Source: Octopus vulgaris (lineage: Eukaryota). Taken from it: a DNA stretch of 64,000 bases. A model generated the notes under the pieces. The model had not been told where the DNA came from. It did not search any database and saw nothing but the letters and a program-made list of their open reading frames with translations. This document shows positions 6,358 to 54,342 of the stretch, piece by piece; positions within the stretch are counted from its first letter, which is position 1; each line of letters opens with the position of its first letter. The DNA is taken from the NCBI GenBank assembly GCA_951406725.2, contig OX597820.1, forward strand, positions 78,802,001-78,866,000, in the 5' to 3' direction. A program made the position numbers and the translations under genes.

Positions 6358-8954
<2,597 letters not shown>

Positions 8955-12974: not shown

Positions 12975-13128
12975 TAAATATATGGCTAATTATCTATGTA
13001 GACAGACACGTTGGTGAGTATGTAGGTACGTACTTAGGCTGATAAATAGGTACGCGTATAAGTATGTGTATTTACCTGTGTGTATATGTATATACTTATA
13101 TATACATTCATATTTTGCCCGTATATAC

Positions 13129-13242
<114 letters not shown>

Positions 13243-13249
13243 GTGTGTA

Positions 13250-14450
13250 GTTGACATAGCCGATCTGGGTTGTATCAGTGACGTTAATCCCCAACACATT
13301 ATATCGAACATAATGTTTGGCACCCCTGATGTCTTAGCGGCAATAAACGAAATTAAAAACAATTCATCAATAATCCCTGATAGGTTCCCTGCTTGTGTCC
13401 TGAAGGTGTGTCGACACCAATTTGCATCTCCTCTCGCTAATCTGTGGAGCAACTTACTGGATGCTGGTTATATTCCTGAAAACTTTCTGTCCCAGTTTGT
13501 TGTCCTAGTTTTCAAAATGGGCAACAAGTCCCTTGCAGTGAACTACCGTCCGATCTCACTCACCTCTCATATCATCAAGGTATTTGAGTAGGGTGGTGAG
13601 ATCACAAATAACCCATTTTCTGGAAAGCAACAGACTGCTGAACCCCAACCAACATGGGTTCCGTAATGGGAAGAACTGCCTAACGCAGCTCCTGCATCAC
13701 TTTGATGAAATTGTGAGAGCTTTGGGAGAGGGCTGCAACACCGATGTCATCTACCTTGATTTTAGCAAGGCCTTCGACAGGGTTGATCATAAGATTCTCT
13801 TGGAAAAACGATCCAACATTGGTGTCTCTGGAAAGTTACTACAATGGATCAAGTGTTTCCTGACAGGCAGAACCCAAAACGTTGGAGTCGAAGGAGTAAA
13901 ATCAATCCCAGCCAAAGTCAGCAGTGGTGTTTCACAAGCTGCTGTGTTGGGCGCACTTCTTTTCATCATCTACATCAATGACATTACTGGCATCATCAAG
14001 CACAGAAACATAAGAATCTTTGCAGATTATTCCAAGCGCCAGAAGGTCATCAATGAAGTGGGGGACCGGACATGCCGTCAGTCAGATCTACTGGCTGTCA
14101 TCCAATGGACGGAAAAGAATAATATGCTGCTGAACGAGGACAAAATTGAGTTAATCCACTTCGGAAAAGAGGATACTCTGAAACTCCCATACTCCCTTCC
14201 TTCAGATGAAATTCTAATGGCATCCAATAACATCAGAGACTTGGGGGTAATTGTGGAAAACAACATAAGCTGGGCCGCTCATATAAACAGCAAAGTTGAC
14301 ATGGCCAGCAGAATGTGTTTCTGGATAATCACACCATTATCCTTCTCCTCTTCACTCTTGCCCGACCCCACCTTGAATACTGTTGTCCACTGTGGTGTCC
14401 CCACACGAAACAAAGTATCATGAAAATTGAAGCACCTCAAAGGTCAATTA
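13250..14450 (+). pseudogene. Degenerate CR1/Jockey-group LINE reverse transcriptase
   Basis: Motifs NYRPISLTSHIIKVFE, NQHGFR, VIYLDFSKAFDRVDH, SGVSQAAVLGALLFIIYIND, FADY (YADD mutated) and IRDLGV. Frameshift near 13590. Confidence 0.9.
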
Positions 14451-43902: not shown

Positions 43903-44096
43903 GGATGGATGTACAATAATAACAAAACTGAACATGTTTATTGAAAGGAAAAAATCACAGTGAATCCTAACAAGTTCCCAGTCCGTTACAAAACAAGGGT
44001 TTGGAGAAAAACAGACAAAGAGGGGAGGTTTAATGAGTGACTGTGTGTGTGTGAGTGTATGCGTATATGTATGTGTGTAACAGGGCTGTAACAGAA

Positions 44097-45368
44097 ATGG
44101 AATTCTTTAATTCACCGTTTCTGGATTGTTCTGATGCTCTGTCGATAAATGCCATGATTGAAACCTTGGACAAAGACGTACAAGGAGACTTGGAACATTT
44201 CTTACAGACTTCGATACCTGAAAATAACAATAATAATAATAATAAGATGGGCTTCGAGATGGATTTACGATCGGATCTTTGCATGTCGGATATGTTAACT
44301 GTCAATGGAGTGGAGCCGGTGTTTAATAATATGATGACGACGATGGCCATGATAACAACTGGCATGATGGGGACGGCGATGGCGGCGCCTGCTGTGTTGG
44401 GAACGACGTCGACGACGACGATGACGGCTACGGCCGAAGCAACAACAACAACATCGATACCAACATCATCATCATCATCGTCATCGTCATTATCGTCATC
44501 GTTGTTATCGACAATAACAACAGTAGCATCGCTGTCTACGATACCAACAACAACAACAACCACCACCACCGCCACACCAACAATAGCAACGACATCAACA
44601 GATGCTGTACACGCTACAATAACAACAGCAACAGTGACATCATCACCATCGCCATCGTCATCGTCATCATCATCATCATCATCGTTATCATCATCATTAT
44701 CATCATCATCATCATCATCGTTATTATTGTTATCGTCAGCAACACCGACATTAACAGTAGCGCCGACGACGGCGGCGACGGCTGCGGCGGCGAACCATCA
44801 GGCAACCAGCAATGGACAAGGTGAGTCGTTAAGTTCTTTCTCGACTGTCGTTTACCGTGACAAAAGCCGGGCAGGGGCAGGAGGAGGGAGAGAAGGTGGT
44901 GCTAGTGGTGGTGTTGGTGGTGGTGGTGGTGGTGGAGGAGGAGGTGAGCTTTTCATGCTTAACAACATCACCAATAACAACAACAACAACAACAACACCG
45001 ACACTATCGACAACACAGAAATAGCAATTGCAACAACAACAACAACAACAACAACAGCAGCAAGTGCCTCACAAACAAAAACAATTAGTAGTAGTGGTGG
45101 TGGTGCTGGTGGTGGTGGTCATTTAATTGGCTGGGCCAACGGTTTCAGAAGCAGCAGGCTGGGCGAGAACTGCACCAACTTCACAATCGTCGGAGGTTCT
45201 CAACGGGTGATCAGTGGACGAATGGTGGACAAAAGCAACAACAACAACTATAACGATACCAGTAATAAACTTAATAATAATAATAATAATATTTTACTTA
45301 GCAATAACAACACTTATAATAATAATAATAGTAATATTAACAACAGTCCGTCTATCAACGACAACAAC

Positions 45369-45399
<31 letters not shown>

Positions 45400-45951
45400 T
45401 TAATAGCAACAGAGATAATGTTAGTTGCTTCGGTAGGAGTATTATCAAAGCTGGGTCGAGAATTGTCCGTGCCGATCGGACATTAGGTCAGCAAAATTCC
45501 GATGTCCTTTGGTCACCCGGTTTATCGCGATTGTCTGAAGTAACGGAATCGAGAGATTCTTCTTCTGTCAATGTTCAGGGAGTTTCTGGATCGAATTTAA
45601 ATGGCAACAGTTTGAGTAGTCTGGCAGGACACAATCTCGGTAACTGTCGTGTGTTTATAGACCATCACCAGCCAAATACGCTTAATGTCGGTTCGAATCT
45701 AGTTATCAACTCGAAAACACGAAACTTGCCCTCGCAGGTCGGCCAGCCGAAGCAATGCACAGCTGTTCTTCTTGGGACGGTAGGACAGCTCTCCAAATCG
45801 GCGGTGACGGCTGCTGCTCTCCAGCAGTCCTTGCTTTCAGGTGCAAGTGGCAATAATTGCAGTAACACCCTGAATGCACTCAACTCGGTAACGGCGACAC
45901 CGCTGTCGCAGGTTTTTGTATTACAAACTTTGGGTCAGGAACAGCAACAAA

Positions 45952-45982
<31 letters not shown>

Positions 45983-46296
45983 ACAACAACAACAACAACA
46001 GAAAGAACAACAACGACAGCAGCAACAACAACAACAACAACAAGCACTGCACTTGCATAACAGCATAAATCTAAGGGACAATGTGCCATTGCAGTTTTAT
46101 CAAAGTTCTGTTGAGTCAGGAAACTACGTCCAAACTCAGCTGCAACAGCAGCAGCAGCAACAACAACAACAACAACAACAACATCAGCAACAACAACATA
46201 TTCAAGCGCAATTACTTCTACAACAACAACAACAACAGCAACAACAACAAGAAAGACTTCAACAACAAAACCAACAACATCTACAATTATTACAAC

Positions 46297-46328
<32 letters not shown>

Positions 46329-46735
46329 CAGCAACAACAGTTAATACATCATCAACTTCTGCAACAACAACAACAACATCAACTACAACAACAGCAGCAG
46401 CAGCAACAACAGCAGCAGCAGCAACACCAACATCAACAGCAGCAGCAGCAACAACAACATGTGTACGCTGAGAACAGAGACAATTGTCCAACGATGTTTG
46501 GAATAAATGGTAAACCACGTCTTGTGGTGAAACCATTAGAGACCCGAGTCCAACACCAGACTGTTGATACATCGGTGCTGGATCTATGTGATGCCATGGC
46601 AGTGTCGCCAGACATGCCAGTCACCGCCAAATGCTACCCTAAACCTGTATATTCCTATAGCTGTCTCATAGCGATGGCTTTGAAAAATAGCAAAACTGGG
46701 AGTTTACCGGTCAGTGAGATTTACAACTTCATGAC
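44097..46735 (+). CDS. FoxN1/4: Forkhead box N1/4-class transcription factor, large exon (N-terminal region + start of forkhead domain)
   Basis: Open frame of ~880 codons ending [33 protein letters not shown](T), the FOXN1/FOXN4 forkhead N-terminus. Perfect donor AC|GTAAGT at 46735/46736 (phase 2). Candidate acceptor AGs at 44082-83 and 44093-94 just before the ATG. The true start is uncertain. Confidence 0.92.
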
Positions 46736-46789
46736 GTAAGTAAACATTATTATTTTTTTTTTTTTGTCATTGTCGTCGTTATTTTATGT

Positions 46790-47242: not shown

Positions 47243-47800
47243 TTGTGTTTGACTTTTGCATTTGTACAAGTTGGCTCCAATTTTCACCCAGAGACTTCAA
47301 GAGACAACAAGTTAGAAGTTCATGTTGGTGTTATGCCTAGGGTGCCATGCATTTGGTTTTGTACATAGTGTTGTTCTAGAGAATGTTTAAGAAAATATAA
47401 GAAAATTGTTTGTTTTAAAATTTGAGATCACATAGAAAGTATTTTGCGTAGGATATGAGCAGTTCCCATGAGCACTATCTTTTGAATTTCTGCCATTTTG
47501 GGGTTTCCTGGTATCTGAGCTAGGTTGCAATCAGCCGCTTTTGCTATCATTCCCAGGGCACCTATGGCAACGGGTATTGTTTTAGTCTTCAGGTTCCACA
47601 TTTTGCTTATTTCTGTTTCAAGATCTTTATATTTGCTCAGTTTTTGGTAGGTCTTGACAAATACGTTTATATCGATTGGGACAGTCATATCAATGAGGAG
47701 GCATGATTTTTGTCTGAAGACTTTCAATATGATGTCTGGCCTATTTGCATCTATCTTTCTGTCAGTTTGAATGGCGAGGTTCCAGAGGAGTGAGATGTTA
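47241..47800 (-). mobile_element. R4/Dong-like LINE 3' fragment with restriction-like endonuclease domain (copy 2)
   Basis: LLWNLAIQTDRKIDANRPDII...LLIDMTVP...KLSKYKDL...IPVAIGALG...LMGTAHILRKILSM. Ends in (TAA)n. Confidence 0.85.
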
Positions 47801-47934
47801 TCATTATTATTATTGTTGTTGTTGTTGTTGTTGTATTGTTGTTATTGTTGTTGTTATTATTATTATCATCATCATCATCATCATTATTATTATTCAATAG
47901 TTCTTTTTCAGTTTTATATTTAAGAGATGAGTAA

Positions 47935-48181
47935 TTATGTACATTATTTACATTATTTACATTTGACGGATATTTGTCTTCATCTTGTTTGTTGTTAACA
48001 CAACGTTTCGGCTGATATACCCTCCTGCCTTCATCAGGTATCTTGGGGAAATTTCGAACTTGGGTTCTCGTTCCTAAGGTATTTTTCGATGTTGTTGTTG
48101 TTGTTGTTATTCAGGTCACTGCCTGGAATCGAACTCGGAATCTTGGAGTTAGTAACCCGTGCTCCTAGCCACTACGCCATA
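47935..48181 (-). mobile_element. tRNA-headed, hammerhead-containing short element (copy 1)
   Basis: Minus strand: TGGCGTAGTGGCTAGG (A box)...GAGTTCGATTCC (B box)...(AAC)n...CTGATGAAGGCAG...CAGCCGAAACGTTGTGTT...AT-rich tail. Confidence 0.75.
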
Positions 48182-48182
48182 C

Positions 48183-48246
48183 GCTACTAACCCCCAGATT
48201 CTGAATTCGATTCCAGGCAGTGACCTAAATAATAATAATACTAATG

Positions 48247-48303
<57 letters not shown>

Positions 48304-48449
48304 GTAACATAGAAAAAAATACCTTAGGAATGAGAACCCAGGTTCGAAATTTCCCCAAGACACCTGATGAAGGCTGGAGGATATATCAGCCGAAACGTTG
48401 TGTTAACAACAAACAAGATGGGGACAAAAAATCCGTCAAATGTAAATAA
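48183..48449 (+). mobile_element. tRNA-headed, hammerhead-containing short element (copy 2, head truncated, inverted relative to copy 1)
   Basis: Reverse-complement homologue of copy 1 starting within the tRNA-like head; internal (AAT)n. Confidence 0.75.
48359..48404 (+). ncRNA. Minimal type-I hammerhead ribozyme
   Basis: Stem I GACAC/GUGUU; core CUGAUGA; extra A; stem II GGCUG-10 nt-CAGCC; GAAA; palindromic ACGU stem III; putative cleavage after GUU (48399). Confidence 0.7.
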
Positions 48450-48776
48450 AGTCTTCTTTTTATTGCGTGCTTTTTCACTGCAATACTGATCGCAATTCTG
48501 TGGACCCTGTTTACGTGTGGTTTGTGTTGTTGTTATTGTTATTTTTCCTGTATTACAAATGCTCTGCGTAAACCATGTGACGTACCTAGCACTTCTATTT
48601 TCTGTATATTATGCATTTATTCGTAAACCCTGAAGTTCAGCTTATGTATTTGTCCGTATGTTCACACCCAAAGCACTTATTATTGCCTTGTTTATGTTTT
48701 CAGGCTCCGCATTCGCGTTATCTTTCTTTCCAGATCTTTGCATGTTGATAGTTTTTGTATTTTATTCCCAGCGTAT

Positions 48777-49193
48777 AGGTGTAGGAGTGGCTGTGTGGTA
48801 AGTAGCTTGCTTACGAACTGCATGGTTCCGGGTTCAGTCCCACTGTGTGGCACCTTGAGCAAGTGTCTTCTACTATAGCCTTGGGCCGACCAAAGCCTTG
48901 CGAGTGAATTTGGTAGACGGAAACTGAAAGAAGCACGTCATATATGTATGTATATATATATGTGTGTGTATGTGTATGTTTGTGTGTCTGTGTTTGTCCC
49001 CCCAACATCGCTTGACAACCGATGCTGGTGTGTTTACGACCCCGTAACTTAGCGGTTCGGCAAAAGACACCGATAGAATAAGTACTAGGCTTACAAAAAA
49101 TAAGTCCTGGGTACGATTTGTTCGACTAAAGGCGGTGCTCCAGCATGGCCACAGTCAAATGACTGAAACAAGTAAAAGAGTTAAGAGTAAAGA
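48777..49193 (+). mobile_element. Family A SINE, full length
   Basis: Complete head, body and tail. Confidence 0.87.
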
Positions 49194-49194
49194 G

Positions 49195-49780
49195 CTCTTT
49201 ACGCTCTGAGTTCAAATGCCGCCGAGGTTAACATTGCCCCTCATCGTTTTCTGGGTCGTTAAAATAACTACCAGTTTTAGTTCTAGGATTGGCATAATTG
49301 ACTCACCCGCTCCCTAAAAATTGTAGGCCATCTGCCTTATATTAAAATGAATTTTTGTTATTACTGTAGTGTCTCTGGAGGCAGCGAGCTGGCAGAATCG
49401 TTAGCACGCTGGACGAAATGCTTAGCGGTATTTCGCCTGTCGCTACGTTCTGAGTTCAAATTCCGCCGAGGTCGACTTTGCCTTTCATCCTTTCGGGCTC
49501 GATTAAATAAGTACCAGTTACCCACTGTGCTGTGATCGATATAATCGACTTAATCCGTTTGTCTGTCCTTGTTTGTCCTCTCTGTGTTTAGCCCCTTGTG
49601 GGTAGTAAAGAAATAGGAATTTCGCCTGTCGCTACGTTCTGAGTTCAAATTCTGCCGAGATCGACTTTGTGTTTCATCCTTTTGGGGTCGATAAATTAAG
49701 TACCAGTGAAACACTGGGGTCGATGTAATCGACCGGTCCCTCCCCCACATGTCAGGCCTTGTGCCTACAGTAGAAAGGGT
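49195..49780 (+). mobile_element. Family B SINEs (diverged fragment plus a two-module copy from 49378)
   Basis: Head GGCAGCGAGCTGGCAGAATCGTTAG; internal module repeated at ~49427 and ~49616. Confidence 0.8.
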
Positions 49781-50162
49781 CATTGTGGTCTCTCTAAATG
49801 AATATGTGAAATAGTGGGTGACTATGAAAAACAAGGGGTTCAGGGCGATTAGACCCGCTTTAGGTATGCCCAGTAGATTGGAGAACAACTGTTGAGTGAA
49901 GGCTTATGTCTTTGGTGGTCAGGATAATTCTGGGTGCGTTGAGTTCCTTGAGTGACCCTGAGTTGGAGGTTCCCTGCATCAGAAGGACTGCATTTATGTG
50001 TCCACGTATTTTATATGCTAAGTATTCTTTTATCTCGAGTCCCCCTACCCTCTCTTTCTTCCCGTCATGTTTAACGTAAACCCAAACACAAACTGTAAAC
50101 TGTTCTTTCAATGTTCCCCTCTTCTAATGCCTCTGAGGAAAATAAAAGAACAGATTATTATC

Positions 50163-50244
<82 letters not shown>

Positions 50245-50940
50245 AAAGCAGCAGCAGCAGCAGCAGCAGAAGTCCATGTGATAAACGTTGAAAGACGAAA
50301 GAGAGCTGCGAACTCTGAATGCTCCAGTAGAGTCGGTGAACACAACCGTGAAAGGGGAGCACTTTCCTTGACAGAAAGGCAGTCTAGGACCTACGCTTTT
50401 TCTCCAATAACTTCGTTAAAAAGTGGGTTGACAAACTTAATATGGCTCGAGTGAATGAAGTTACACTGAGCATGTCCTTTTGGTCAGCAGGCAGTGAACT
50501 GGGAAAAGGAACTTGTCCTTGGCTGTCAGCGTAACTCTGCAGTGTTGGGATTCTTTGTTGTGTCTTTGTGAAGTTTTGTCGAATAGCTGTTGTCGCATAT
50601 AGGACGGATCTCGAGGATAATGCCGAGTCTGACGTGAACAGAACTGAACACTCTTTGTCGTAAGGAAGATTTATATCTGTCAAGTTCCATAATCTCGTGC
50701 CGTGTGGTGATTCTTGTCTCAGGGTGTGTCACTGTGTCCAATCCACTTCTCTAGTATAAGGAGAAACATACAAATTCGACTTCGTTACGACTTGATGTTC
50801 GTTTCTGAATGTATATTCATCAGCCATCAGCCAAGAACTCCCCGTGTCCAGGGATCGGTTTGCCAAGAATCTCCAGTTCACTCTGTGTTGTGTTGCATGC
50901 ATACTGTTGCTGCTTCGTGTAGAAATCTAGTCAAGCGGGG

Positions 50941-51156
50941 TCACAATCACCACTGAGATAACAAAGACGAACAAGGGTTTAAACTTTTTGGAGCCATTTA
51001 TTTTCTACTCGTACGTAACATCATACTGTTGTACCGCGTTTATATACAAATGTATGGCAAGTGTACGCCTGCACGATGTTACGTAAGAGTAGAAAATAAA
51101 TGGTTCCAAAAAATTTAAGCCATTGTTCGGCTTTGTGATCACAGTGGTGGTTGTGA
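50941..51156. mobile_element. Foldback/MITE-like element with ~82-bp imperfect inverted arms
   Basis: TCACAATCACCACTG...CCATTTATTTTCTACTCGTACGTAACATC pairs with GATGTTACGTAAGAGTAGAAAATAAATGG...CAGTGGTGGTTGTGA. Confidence 0.7.
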
Positions 51157-51439
51157 TTCTGCTTGCACGAAGCAGCAACAGTAGAAAAAACTTTGTCGGC
51201 TCATCATTCTAGAAACAGCTGAAAATTGGTCACATTGATACAACGCCACGTTCGCAGTAACATGAAATAACCATTGAAGAGGAACATCCAGGGATGGCAG
51301 CGGGTTTTCTGAGATATAGACGGACACAAAAGGGACAACCCCACCATTTTTCTGAAAACAAAACAACCTCGATTCCAGATACAAACCGGAAATGACTCAC
51401 TTCCGACAAGTTGTGAAAACTAACGCTAAATAGTAATCG

Positions 51440-52030
51440 TTGGAGATAACACAAACTTTTACCGAGGCTCTTGTTTCCATTCCATGTTTTTATGTCATCA
51501 GTCAACGTCTTTGACGGCCTCTTGTTCTCTTCCTTTCCACACTTCCTGTCAGCATAGTCTTTGGCAATGTCTCGTGACACATTGTATGTCCAAATTATCA
51601 AAGTTTTGTAGACTTGATTCTCAACATAGGTGTCTTTGGATTTTCAGCTTCACTAGTACTGTAGCGTTAGTTACCCTATCTGTTCCGCCTATTCTGCCCA
51701 ATCTACGAAAGATCATTATCTCAAGAGCTTCTATCTTTCTTCACATTGCTCTGTACATTGTCCAAGTTTCTGCCCCCGTAGAGGACAATACAGCAGTTTT
51801 CTAGCCTCAATGTTAGGTGCAGTGTTATATATTTTGAAGTGAAGATCTTTTTCATTCTTATAAATGTTGTTTTAGCCTTATTTATTCATTGAACAACTTC
51901 TACTTCACAGCAGCCTCCCGAACGTATTATTTGTCCTAGAAACTTTAACGTTTTCTAATTGCTCCAGTTGTTTCTACCTTGATATTTGCTTCCTTTTGTT
52001 CCAAGTTACTAATAACCATTGTCATTTTAA
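51440..52030 (-). pseudogene. Degenerate RTE-clade LINE C-terminal region
   Basis: Minus strand GAETWTMYRAM*RKIEALEIMIFRRLGRIGGTDRVTNATVL, typical of the RTE post-RT region; several stops and frameshifts. Confidence 0.65.
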
Positions 52031-52693
52031 CCAGTCTATATAAATGTAATCCGCATAAATTATAAACCAGTTTGATAAGCGCCAATGTATGAAACTGTCG
52101 TCCCTTGCGTCACTCAGTAACTTCTGCCGATGAATAACAAAAAAATAATATAACTATAAATATGCACACATTTTGAGTTTTATTTTCCTATTTGTATCAC
52201 CAGACCAGATTATATAATAATATCGCGTGGAAAGAAATTATTATAAAGAATGCGTACAGTCTTTTGTGGGTGAGCGCTGTACACCAAACATATCAAGTAT
52301 AGAGCCCCTGAGACTCCCTTGATTGACCACCAGGTGGTAGTTTCCTTCCTGGGGCATGTTATTTCATTTGCTTTTCACACTGCTGTTTTGACTGCCTTGT
52401 TTTCTCGTATTCTATTCTATGTAAACCCCCCACCCCACCCCACCCCATTGTTATACCTACACAAGTGCTCCTTCACCCGATTTTGTTTCCCCATAACGTT
52501 TAGAAAAAAGGATATTTTGTAATGAATTTTTCTACAAATACCTTTGAGATGGCGTGCATGACGACGATATCGGAATTTGTTGTGAAAATCTTTTCGGGCG
52601 TGGTGGGAAAAAGAGTTTCAGATAATTCATACGAGTTGACTTTGTTTTCTCATGTCTTTTAGTAAAATGGATATTTTTTGCACATTCCGACTA

Positions 52694-52899
52694 CAGTAAT
52701 CTCTCGCCATATCGCGGTTCATCTATCGCGCACTCAGTACATCGCGGATTTTTCTGGCCAATATATGTAAATTTATATCGCGGACTTCTCAATATATCGC
52801 GGGTTTCTGCGGCCGATAGATATTTATATTTTTTTAGATTTTAATTATTTCTGAGGGGGGTTTTGGAGCGTAACACTCGCGATAGTCGAGGAATTACTG
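52694..52899. mobile_element. Tigger/pogo-like MITE (TA TSD)
   Basis: TA|CAGTAATCTCTCG...CGAGGAATTACTG|TA. Confidence 0.8.
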
Positions 52900-53229
52900 T
52901 ATATCGGAATTTGCTTTGAAAATCTTTTCGGGCATGGTGGGGAGAAGAGGTTCAGATAATTCACACGAGTTGACTTTGTTTTCTCATGACTTTCAGAAAA
53001 ATTGATATTTTTAAATGAATAACGGTCCAGCAAGAAACAGCTGAAATAAACGACCATCGCTCTATGGCTGCCTGTGTGCAGGGTCAAAGCTGATGGTTTC
53101 AAGTGGCGTCTTCTACATGTCCCGATTGCCCTTTTCCCTATCAGTATTGGACTTATGAAGAAAGCGCGATGGTGTCAGAGCTGGTGTCTTGGTTTGTTGA
53201 CCAACTAGCATGATGACTATTATCATATC

Positions 53230-53371
53230 GTACATTATTTACATTTGACGGATATTTGTCCTCATCTTGTTTGTTATTAACACAACGTTTCGGCTGATAT
53301 ACTCTCCAGCCTTCATCAGGTGTCTTAGGGAAATTTCGAACCTAGGTTCTCATTCCTCAGGTATTTTTCGA

Positions 53372-53414
<43 letters not shown>

Positions 53415-53512
53415 GTTGTTGTTGTTGTTATTATTATTATTTAGGTCACTGCCTGGAATCGAACTCGGAATCTTGGGGTTAGTAGCCTGCGCTCTTAACC
53501 TCTACGCCATAT
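53230..53512 (-). mobile_element. tRNA-headed, hammerhead-containing short element (copy 3)
   Basis: Minus strand TGGCGTAGAGGTTAAGAGCGCAGGCTACTAACCCCAAGATTCCGAGTTCGATTCCAGG...(AAT)n...hammerhead...tail. Confidence 0.78.
53279..53324 (-). ncRNA. Minimal type-I hammerhead ribozyme
   Basis: GACAC-CUGAUGA-A-GGCUG-GAGAGUAUAU-CAGCC-GAAA-CG-UU-GUGUU; stems intact. Confidence 0.7.
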
Positions 53513-54342
53513 TATTTCAGAAGTGAAATATAGAACTGTATTATCATATTGGTTAAATGTTTGTGCAGAGCTGGTCTCACTCTTTCGTCCTGCAAACTCG
53601 TATTGGCCCGGTACCAGTGCTACGAGTAAAGTAGTTACCAAGATGCAGATTTTGTATAGAGTTAGCTTCTTTCAGATGAGCAGATAAAGAGCTAAAGGGC
53701 CTCATCTGCTTTGGCTGCGTTGGGGGTGTCTGTGAGGAACGTTCTTCCAGAGGCCATCCTGTGGCACGCTAATTAACGCATAACTGGAGCACTGACAGGT
53801 GTTACTACTCGGGGTCAGAGAGAACTGGGAACAACAATTGCTAAGAGGTCATTCTATACACCTCAAAACCCTGCAACATCCGAAAGAGACTATTACTTAA
53901 AGAAATACAAAGACACTCGTGATCCCAGCCAGTTACCCGGTTTACCACCCGCTTTCATTCTTAATCGATTATTCATGTAAAGTATATTGTGGCAGTGTTG
54001 GTAACTGTTGCTCTATTCACTCAAAAGAAGTGAAACCTCTGCTTTTTAAATTATAGCGACTGGAGAAACAGCCATTTTTTATTAAGTGGAGGAAACTCAC
54101 TGTCATGTATATATATATATATCAATTGCTTGTAAGGACCCCCATATTAAGTTACGCAGTCATAATGTACTACTAAGTATATCAAAGGCTTTATAAGTCA
54201 ATACTGTGTCCTACCTGTGTAAGCAGTGCGATTAAATCAATTTTGAAAAAGTGTTTTAATATTCATACTTTCCCAGTGACGATTGATATTGTTCCAGAAG
54301 TGAAATAAGCTTTACCCGACAGTTTACTTTTTAAATCAATAG

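What the first reader, a model, noticed from the sequence alone, without database searches (positions are those of the whole stretch)
47935..53512. Short retroelement joining a tRNA-like Pol III head to a hammerhead ribozyme and PLE-like tail (candidate Penelope-mobilised SINE or retrozyme)
Seen: three copies (47935-48181 -, 48183-48449 +, 53230-53512 -) share one ~250-280-nt layout. It runs A box TGGCGTAG(T/A)GG, B box GAGTTCGATTCC, variable (AAT/AAC)n, a second GGTTCGAAAT B-box-like word, a minimal type-I hammerhead (GACAC-CUGAUGA-A-GGCUG..CAGCC-GAAA-CG-UU-GUGUU) and an AT-rich tail (GTAAATAAT). No poly(A) or TSD is visible. Established: minimal hammerheads with a palindromic stem III are typical of PLE terminal repeats, and ordinary SINEs borrow a LINE tail; Pol III-type boxes plus a hammerhead are known from schistosome SM-alpha repeats. 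Inference: this is a non-autonomous, Pol III-transcribed element that self-cleaves and parasitises PLE RT/GIY-YIG machinery, which is present in this genome (6714-7898). I cannot tell whether this family has already been described.
Basis: partly seen in the sequence, partly recalled or inferred. Interest (0 to 1): 0.85.

Follow-up and report, generated by a model that had tools for sequence, protein, structure and literature searches.

The report
Penelope retrotransposon end with tRNA promoter
The short repeats are the terminal repeat of a protein-coding Penelope-type retrotransposon that carries a piece of a tRNA gene, likely used as its own RNA polymerase III promoter, which would explain why most copies start at that piece and look like SINEs.

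Summary
The repeat is real, but it is not a free-standing SINE or retrozyme. It is the terminal repeat (pLTR) of a protein-coding Penelope/Poseidon-type element.

29 of 30 loci picked by that element's endonuclease end continue into the same head, (AAT)n and tail. The hammerhead tail is the first ~155 nt of the element's own ORF. The head derives from host tRNA-Arg(ACG) (47 of 72 identical) and keeps its A and B boxes.

Copies show Penelope hallmarks: an inverted copy upstream (37 of 58), two 3' ends ~30 nt apart, and 8-15-nt target duplications (22 of 98; control 2%). About 75,000 copies are estimated. Roughly three quarters of copies with a complete head start at the tRNA's first base. Short and ORF-bearing copies show no diagnostic base and the same age.

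The window holds two insertions, not three. The PLE at 6714-7898 is not the partner.

Likely mechanism: Pol III transcripts start at the tRNA head and are copied by the element's own RT from an internal site. The coding strand lacks TTTT terminators (P about 0.015), hinting that Pol III may read the whole element. Transcription and cleavage are untested.

The parts
47909..48452 (.). Insertion A: one palindromic insertion of two head-to-head pLTR segments
   Evidence: same layout as 37 of 58 genomic loci
47909..48181 (-). Segment 1: pLTR from head position +6 to the longer 3' end (includes the ~30-nt optional tail)
48169..48179 (-). A box of the tRNA-Arg-derived head, segment 1
48125..48136 (-). 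B box, segment 1
47997..48042 (-). Minimal type I hammerhead, segment 1; one stem II pair broken; predicted cut after 48002
48183..48452 (+). Segment 2: 5'-truncated pLTR (from head +31, no A box, variant B box 48203-48214) ending at the shorter 3' end
48330..48452 (+). Start of the Poseidon ORF inside the pLTR (first in-frame ATG at 48330, inferred start; frame lost near the end of this copy); holds the 'second B-box-like word' and the hammerhead
48359..48404 (+). Minimal type I hammerhead, segment 2; predicted cut after 48399
53218..53549 (.). Insertion B with its 11-nt target-site duplication (53218-53228 and 53539-53549)
53230..53512 (-). Segment 3: pLTR from head +5 to the shorter 3' end; A box 53499-53509, B box 53455-53466, ATG 53351-53353, hammerhead 53279-53324 with predicted cut after 53284
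53526..53540 (+). 15-nt inverted stub of the element's far 3' end, upstream of segment 3
6714..7898 (+). Not part of the element: 5'-truncated PLE of another (Neptune-type, recalled) family, RT plus GIY-YIG; does not share the tail
   Evidence: about 26% identity to the partner family's protein

Best explanation
The short repeats are copies of the terminal repeat (pLTR) of a protein-coding Penelope/Poseidon-type retrotransposon, and this repeat holds a tRNA-Arg-derived A/B box that likely serves as an internal RNA polymerase III promoter, so that transcripts likely start at the tRNA head and are likely copied back by the element's own reverse transcriptase. Shown: the order ORF stop, 29 nt, tRNA-derived head, (AAT)n, first ~155 nt of the ORF with the hammerhead inside; the PLE-type insertion marks; the pile-up of 5' ends at the head; the shared sequence and age of short and long copies. 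Inferred from the anole Poseidon: the RT starts inside the RNA at one of two sites ~30 nt apart. On an RNA that begins at the head, it would run off the 5' end after ~300 nt and give a SINE-sized copy. On an RNA that has read through the ORF into a second repeat, it would give the long, 5'-truncated copies. Short copies would then be by-products of the autonomous master, not masters themselves. The hammerhead is predicted to be inactive as a monomer and may not be needed for insertion. The family is old (about 5-6% non-CpG divergence), and the long copies read are frameshifted.
For: 29 of 30 loci picked by the endonuclease coding end have head and/or tail directly downstream (one is the query locus). 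In L225 and L227 the tail runs in frame into the ORF, and that peptide aligns with residues 18-118 of an 847-aa full-length homologue at 46%. RT: PF00078, E 1.4e-10. The C-terminus aligns with a Pfam-positive GIY-YIG (E 1.5e-5). Head versus host tRNA-Arg(ACG): 47 of 72 ungapped, shuffle maximum 35 in 100,000. Inverted copy upstream in 37 of 58 loci, downstream in 1 of 58; 3' ends at tail 137-150 (29) and 164-175 (22) of 56; the same two ends show as loose ends in all four runs laid. Duplications of 8-15 nt in 22 of 98 insertions, 2.1% in 9,496 control pairs. Exact 17-mer counts: 1,094 (-65..-49), 1,216 (-23..-7), 4,752 (+2..+18), 6,195 (+31..+47): a 3.9-fold step across +1 against 1.1-fold over the 42 nt upstream. 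16 of 25 tail-picked heads start at -8..+5 and none further up; several have no fold-back. No majority-base difference and similar divergence between long and short copies. No run of four T on the coding strand: 0 against 3.3 expected in 2,469 nt, P 0.015; four other ORFs have 2-7.
Against: No direct evidence of Pol III activity. The RNA reads laid come from both directions equally and show no start or end pile-ups; 67-72% run on into other sequence, so they mostly reflect copies inside host transcripts. The 5' pile-up coincides with a short palindrome just upstream of +1 that is the centre of many fold-backs, and palindromes at pLTR 5' ends are known without tRNA heads (PMC3846280 passages). 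9 of 25 tail-picked heads start inside the head (+7..+19), so truncation is also heavy there. No locus with head, tail and ORF all in one direct run was found among 9 near-full-length loci. The T-run test is one post-hoc test, with only 2-3 copies covering the middle of the RT; two short relatives without a head also have no T run (516 and 465 nt). The 17-mer counts are only roughly calibrated (7-15 of 30).
Confidence: 0.6

Rival explanations
1. The tRNA piece is a passenger, for example a SINE head that once inserted into the 3' UTR. The element is transcribed by Pol II or by read-through, and short copies are ordinary 5'-truncated copies that end there because the palindrome just upstream of the head makes the cDNA fold back or stall.
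For: Many 5' junctions are fold-backs centred on the palindrome. Penelope has a TATA-less internal promoter like LINEs (PMC2377424 abstract). Rotifer pLTRs have 5' palindromes. Short and long copies are alike in sequence and age. No Pol III signal in RNA.
Against: Clean ends without fold-back also fall at -5..+5 (L025, L098, L102, L096, L018, L117, L114, L118). A and B boxes still fit the consensus while the cloverleaf stems have decayed. The coding strand lacks T runs (6 in 33.1 kb of raw copies, 0.18 per kb, against 1.5 and 4.0 per kb in two other PLE ORFs).
Confidence: 0.25
2. One reading: after arising from the pLTR, short copies became an independent Pol III SINE with their own master loci, mobilised in trans by the Poseidon protein.
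For: About three quarters to four fifths of complete heads have no upstream sequence. The unit has no internal T run. Some copies start with a short fold-back cap that could be inherited (L107, L111, L113).
Against: No diagnostic base in head or tail; non-CpG divergence 5.3/4.4% (long) versus 5.7/6.3% (random short). One CpG is mutated in 5 of 14 UTR-linked and 35 of 86 unlinked heads (first 100 hits; Fisher P 0.78). In the anole element the RNA needs ORF sequence downstream of the RT start (PMC11167929); solo copies would lack it (inference).
Confidence: 0.1
3. A retrozyme (tandem hammerhead repeat making circular RNA) or a conventional LINE-mobilised SINE.
For: Type I minimal hammerhead as in retrozymes, which are PLE derivatives (bioRxiv 10.64898/2026.07.22.740005). 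Many copies end in a short repeat (TGTAAATAA)n, as LINE-type tails do.
Against: Tandem direct tails in 1 of 58 loci. Copy ends do not fall at the hammerhead cut. The tail is PLE ORF sequence. Duplicated inverted 5' segments and two 3' ends are PLE marks.
Confidence: 0.05

Closest known systems
Penelope/Poseidon PLEs, especially anole PAc (Frangieh et al. 2024, PMC11167929; main text read)
   Same: One ORF with RT and C-terminal GIY-YIG; pLTR holds the ORF start; hammerhead overlaps the ORF start; two 3' ends ~30 nt apart; AT-rich targets
   Different: This pLTR holds a tRNA-Arg-derived A/B box and an (AAT)n tract. The passages read give no such piece for PAc; Penelope has a LINE-like internal promoter (PMC2377424 abstract). 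Three distant relatives fetched here have a hammerhead-like core 20-170 nt after the match and no B box on the coding strand.
Non-LTR retrozymes (bioRxiv 10.64898/2026.07.22.740005, main text read; PMC7761336, passages)
   Same: Short, type I hammerhead, derived from PLE pLTRs
   Different: Retrozymes are tandem repeats and are said to carry no promoter. These copies are dispersed, inverted rather than tandem, carry Pol III boxes, and match their autonomous element base for base.
TRIMp3: Cassandra, Helenus, Ajax (Kojima 2024, PMC10886601, passages)
   Same: Small-RNA-derived Pol III promoter inside a terminal repeat; origin by SINE insertion proposed
   Different: Those are non-autonomous LTR elements, and the paper argues their autonomous partners must use Pol II. 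Here the tRNA piece sits in the repeat of the protein-coding element itself, in the PLE class.
tRNA-derived SINEs, including schistosome SM-alpha and octopus OK/OR1/OR2 (SM-alpha and OK recalled, not read; OR1/OR2 cited as CORE-SINEs in passages of PMC4824008 and PMC4758252)
   Same: tRNA head with A/B boxes, ~300 nt, tens of thousands of copies; SM-alpha is recalled to pair Pol III boxes with a hammerhead
   Different: No LINE tail; the 3' part is PLE coding sequence. I could not compare with the OK/OR1/OR2 or SM-alpha sequences.

Membership tests
Penelope/Poseidon PLE | ORF with RT domain | tested here: met
   PF00078 at E 1.4e-10 and 1.8e-8 in L181 and L182; frames broken in these old copies
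Penelope/Poseidon PLE | C-terminal GIY-YIG endonuclease | tested here: met
   No direct PF01541 hit, but the family profile aligns with the Pfam-positive GIY-YIG of the window's other PLE, E 1.5e-5, 34% over 53 columns
Penelope/Poseidon PLE | No Zn-finger-like linker between RT and EN (present in Neptune and Nematis) | tested here: met
   Linker read directly; criterion from PMC8557442 passage
Penelope/Poseidon PLE | Clade placement by RT tree against reference PLEs | not tested
   No reference set was available, so the label Poseidon rests on domain order and linker
Penelope/Poseidon PLE | pLTR that includes the ORF start | tested here: met
   2 of 9 near-full-length loci show the tail running in frame into the ORF; peptide conserved in P0014
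Penelope/Poseidon PLE | Inverted 5'-truncated copy upstream; optional 30-40-nt tail; short target duplications | tested here: met
   37 of 58; ends at 137-150 and 164-175; 22 of 98 duplications
PLE minimal hammerhead (Cervera and de la Pena 2014) | Conserved core, extra base between 9 and 10.1, G10.1-C11.1 pair, palindromic 15.2-16.2 | tested here: met
   All three window segments; criteria from PMC4209133 passage
PLE minimal hammerhead (Cervera and de la Pena 2014) | Self-cleavage as dimer or with protein | not testable with these tools
   No read ends piled at the cut site in two RNA runs, which is weak
SINE (tRNA-derived) | tRNA-derived head with A and B boxes and no internal T-run terminator | tested here: met
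SINE (tRNA-derived) | Head absent from the autonomous partner; separate non-autonomous lineage | tested here: not met
   Head found in 28 of 30 ORF-end loci; no diagnostic base
SINE (tRNA-derived) | Transcribed by Pol III | not testable with these tools
   Indirect only: 5'-end step and T-run absence
Non-LTR retrozyme | Tandem direct repeats, each with a hammerhead | tested here: not met
   1 of 58 loci
Non-LTR retrozyme | Circular RNA | not testable with these tools
   No suitable RNA run

The most novel reading that the evidence does not exclude
An autonomous, protein-coding retrotransposon that switched to RNA polymerase III. The captured tRNA-Arg promoter in the pLTR drives the whole ~3-kb RNA, the coding strand was purged of T-run terminators, and internal priming turns the same RNA into tens of thousands of SINE-like copies: a SINE and its autonomous partner in one element.
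Probability: 0.3. Interest if true: 0.82.

Novelty: new variant of a known kind. Interest (0 to 1): 0.58.

Why it matters
Protein-coding retrotransposons are held to use Pol II and SINEs Pol III (PMC10886601 passages). A Penelope element with tRNA boxes in its own terminal repeat blurs that line. It gives a concrete route by which SINE-like families can come from PLEs without a separate non-autonomous master. If the T-run absence is real selection, it raises a testable question: how is an uncapped ~3-kb Pol III RNA translated, and does the hammerhead inside the ORF start have a role? In practice, an estimated ~75,000 copies would be labelled tRNA-SINE by automatic annotation though they belong to a PLE. 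If the tRNA piece is only a passenger, this is an ordinary old Poseidon family with an odd UTR.

Tried and rejected
Window PLE as partner: rejected; 0 of 30 copies share head or tail. The 30 best Pfam GIY-YIG loci (29 Neptune-type PLEs by recalled motifs, one apparent host exon) also gave 0 of 30.

A pattern search for tails with non-microsatellite upstream (20 non-redundant loci of 30 read) gave only truncated or folded-back copies. Two of them later proved to carry the PLE UTR.

Rfam found no tRNA or hammerhead family over the element. In the whole-window scan I saw only the top 150 of 414 rows, nearly all microsatellite-type matches. ARAGORN found no tRNA in the window. Folding z-scores of hammerhead and head were weak (-2.1 to +1.3). 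Phage blastn with the head gave only chance-level hits.

A first target-duplication test on 17 inversion-free copies gave 4 of 17; it was redone with outer boundaries.

Sequencing runs: no RNA holder listed. Raw RNA reads of a related organism gave no strand or start information. Metagenome scans gave nothing, then 3 distant relatives. No copy of the element was found in 199 kb around Neptune-type loci; about half of that is PLE sequence itself.

Earlier scan notes: none found.

Literature: ten searches listed no paper describing a PLE with a tRNA-derived pLTR. The 2015 octopus genome paper was not held, and the 1994 octopus SINE paper was not read. Repbase, Dfam, SINEBase, the Zenodo library of PMC13282606 and the bioRxiv supplements could not be seen; the family may be catalogued there.
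Full report
Observation. The three segments are present and 92-93% identical over the tail. Segments 1 and 3 have A and B boxes; segment 2 starts at head position +31 and lacks the A box. Segments 1 and 2 are joined head to head and form one insertion, 47909-48452. Segment 3 has a 15-nt inverted stub of the far 3' end upstream and is bracketed by an 11-nt duplication. All three hold the minimal type I hammerhead with the four traits listed for PLE motifs in PMC4209133 (passages; anatomy). The genome G000 has 2.8 Gb; I take it for an octopus from recalled repeats only.

Family. Ten insertions lay in 37 evenly chosen 10-kb stretches (370 kb), about 75,000 genome-wide (Poisson range 36,000-139,000). 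Leaving out the window's own locus, 27 of 29 head-picked loci have the tail downstream and 25 of 29 tail-picked loci have the head. Of 58 loci, 37 have an inverted partial copy within 650 nt upstream and 1 downstream. 3' ends fall at tail positions 137-150 (29) and 164-175 (22) of 56; tail-picked loci were chosen for reaching ~141, so shorter ends are undercounted. The same two ends, 34 nt apart, appear as loose ends in two RNA runs and two contig sets from three other organisms. Exact non-simple repeats of 8-15 nt bracket 22 of 98 insertions, against 2.1% of 9,496 cross-locus pairs. Upstream inverted copies and a 30-40-nt optional tail are described as PLE traits (PMC8557442 passages; PMC3846280 passages; PMC11167929 main text).

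Partner. The window's PLE (RT plus GIY-YIG) is not it: 0 of 30 copies share head or tail, nor do the 30 best Pfam GIY-YIG loci. Locus L106 instead has endonuclease coding sequence running straight into the head. Of 30 loci picked with that coding end, 29 have head and/or tail directly downstream (one is the query itself). The stop codon lies 29 nt before the tRNA's first base. L181 and L182 share 1.8 kb at 91% and encode a broken RT (PF00078). The C-terminus has no direct Pfam GIY-YIG hit but aligns with a Pfam-positive one. There is no Zn-finger linker, which fits Penelope/Poseidon; no tree was built. In 2 of 9 near-full-length loci the tail continues in frame into the ORF. That peptide matches the N-terminus of an 847-aa homologue (46% over residues 18-118). 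The homologue's first 70 residues hit window segments 1 and 3 at 40.0 and 37.4 bits, against a maximum of 35.4 in 40 shuffles. So the tail is the first ~155 nt of the ORF, hammerhead included, as in the anole element, and the 'second B box' is coding sequence.

Head. Rfam and ARAGORN do not call it. A pattern search found host genes, four of which ARAGORN calls tRNA-Arg(ACG). The head majority matches them at 47, 47, 45 and 41 of 72 positions without gaps; the best of 100,000 shuffles reached 35. A and B boxes keep the consensus while the stems have decayed, as expected of a promoter rather than a working tRNA (inference). The host tRNA genes are followed by T runs. Three distant relatives from metagenomes have a hammerhead-like core soon after the coding match and no B box on that strand, so the head looks like an acquisition of this lineage; three loci are few.

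Are short copies a SINE? Exact 17-mers give 1,094 hits at -65..-49, 1,216 at -23..-7, 4,752 at +2..+18 and 6,195 at +31..+47; reversed controls gave 0-1. The step across +1 is 3.9-fold raw and about 5.5-fold after a rough calibration, so some 75-80% of complete heads have nothing upstream. In 25 tail-picked heads, 16 start at -8..+5, 9 at +7..+19 and none further up. In the random sample 2 of 7 heads extend upstream. Many junctions fold back at a short palindrome just before +1, but at least eight end there cleanly. Long and short copies have the same majority base everywhere in head and tail and similar divergence (non-CpG 5.3/4.4% versus 5.7/6.3% for random short copies), and one CpG has decayed alike (5 of 14 versus 35 of 86). 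This fits one master, with a transcript start at the head. At the rate quoted in PMC13282606 (parts 1-2 read) the burst would be very roughly 15 million years old.

Mechanism. In the anole element, reverse transcription starts inside the RNA at two sites, needs ORF sequence beyond them, and does not need hammerhead cleavage; that hammerhead cut only with protein present. Applied here (inference), an RNA starting at the tRNA head and reading into the ORF gives a ~300-nt copy; an RNA that reads on into a second repeat gives long truncated copies; fold-back or template switching gives the inversions. The coding strand has no run of four T: 0 against 3.7 under codon shuffling (P 0.009) and 0 against 3.3 under synonymous shuffling (P 0.015). 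Raw copies have 6 runs in 33.1 kb, none shared by more than two, while four other ORFs have 2-7 runs each. This hints that Pol III could read the whole element. It is one post-hoc test with thin coverage mid-RT, and two short head-less relatives also lack T runs while a third has eight. RNA reads say nothing on strand or start.

Comparison. It is a PLE by every feature tested. It works like a SINE in its short form but fails the test of being a separate lineage. It is not a retrozyme (bioRxiv 10.64898/2026.07.22.740005, parts 1-3 of 5; PMC7761336 passages). The nearest analogy for a tRNA piece in a terminal repeat is TRIMp3 (PMC10886601 passages), which is non-autonomous and LTR-type. Ten literature searches listed no PLE with such a head; repeat databases and some supplements could not be seen, so the family itself may be catalogued.

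Verdict. A new variant of a known kind. The structural reading is close to certain. The Pol III start has about 0.6 and whole-element Pol III transcription about 0.3. Interest 0.58.

Noticed in passing
window 6714-7898; G000 loci L031-L060: Very young PLE family (Neptune-type, recalled): 49 of the 150 scored hits are 100% identical over 159 aa, several in 775-aa open frames. No hammerhead core recurs within 1.5 kb downstream in 30 copies.
   Followed up: partly
G000, e.g. L067, L072: A second young PLE family with repeated 781-aa open frames, 3' UTR different from the first.
   Followed up: no
window 44055-46739: Long low-complexity exon ending in the start of a Forkhead domain (PF00250; FoxN-like by recall). 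The element copies may lie in an intron of this gene; not checked.
   Followed up: no
window 47428-47841 (-); L008, L028, L030, L093, L168, L170: Fragments that look like an R4/Dong-type LINE (label recalled; no Pfam hit for the window piece) often sit in or next to the element's (AAT)n tract, which may serve as their target.
   Followed up: no
G000:C2:211.89-211.91 Mb: Dense cluster of about 20 tRNA-Arg(ACG)-like sequences on one strand, some ~206 nt apart.
   Followed up: no
L229 1-569 and 1249-1817: Inverted pair 99.5% identical although the family is ~10% diverged between copies: a recent inverted duplication or an assembly feature.
   Followed up: no
window 13046-14423: Decayed RT of a non-LTR element (PF00078, E 7e-18).
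   Followed up: no
runs X17, X20, X21, X22: Both the coding end and the head+tail of the family are present in organisms B, E and G, so it predates their split or spread among them.
   Followed up: partly
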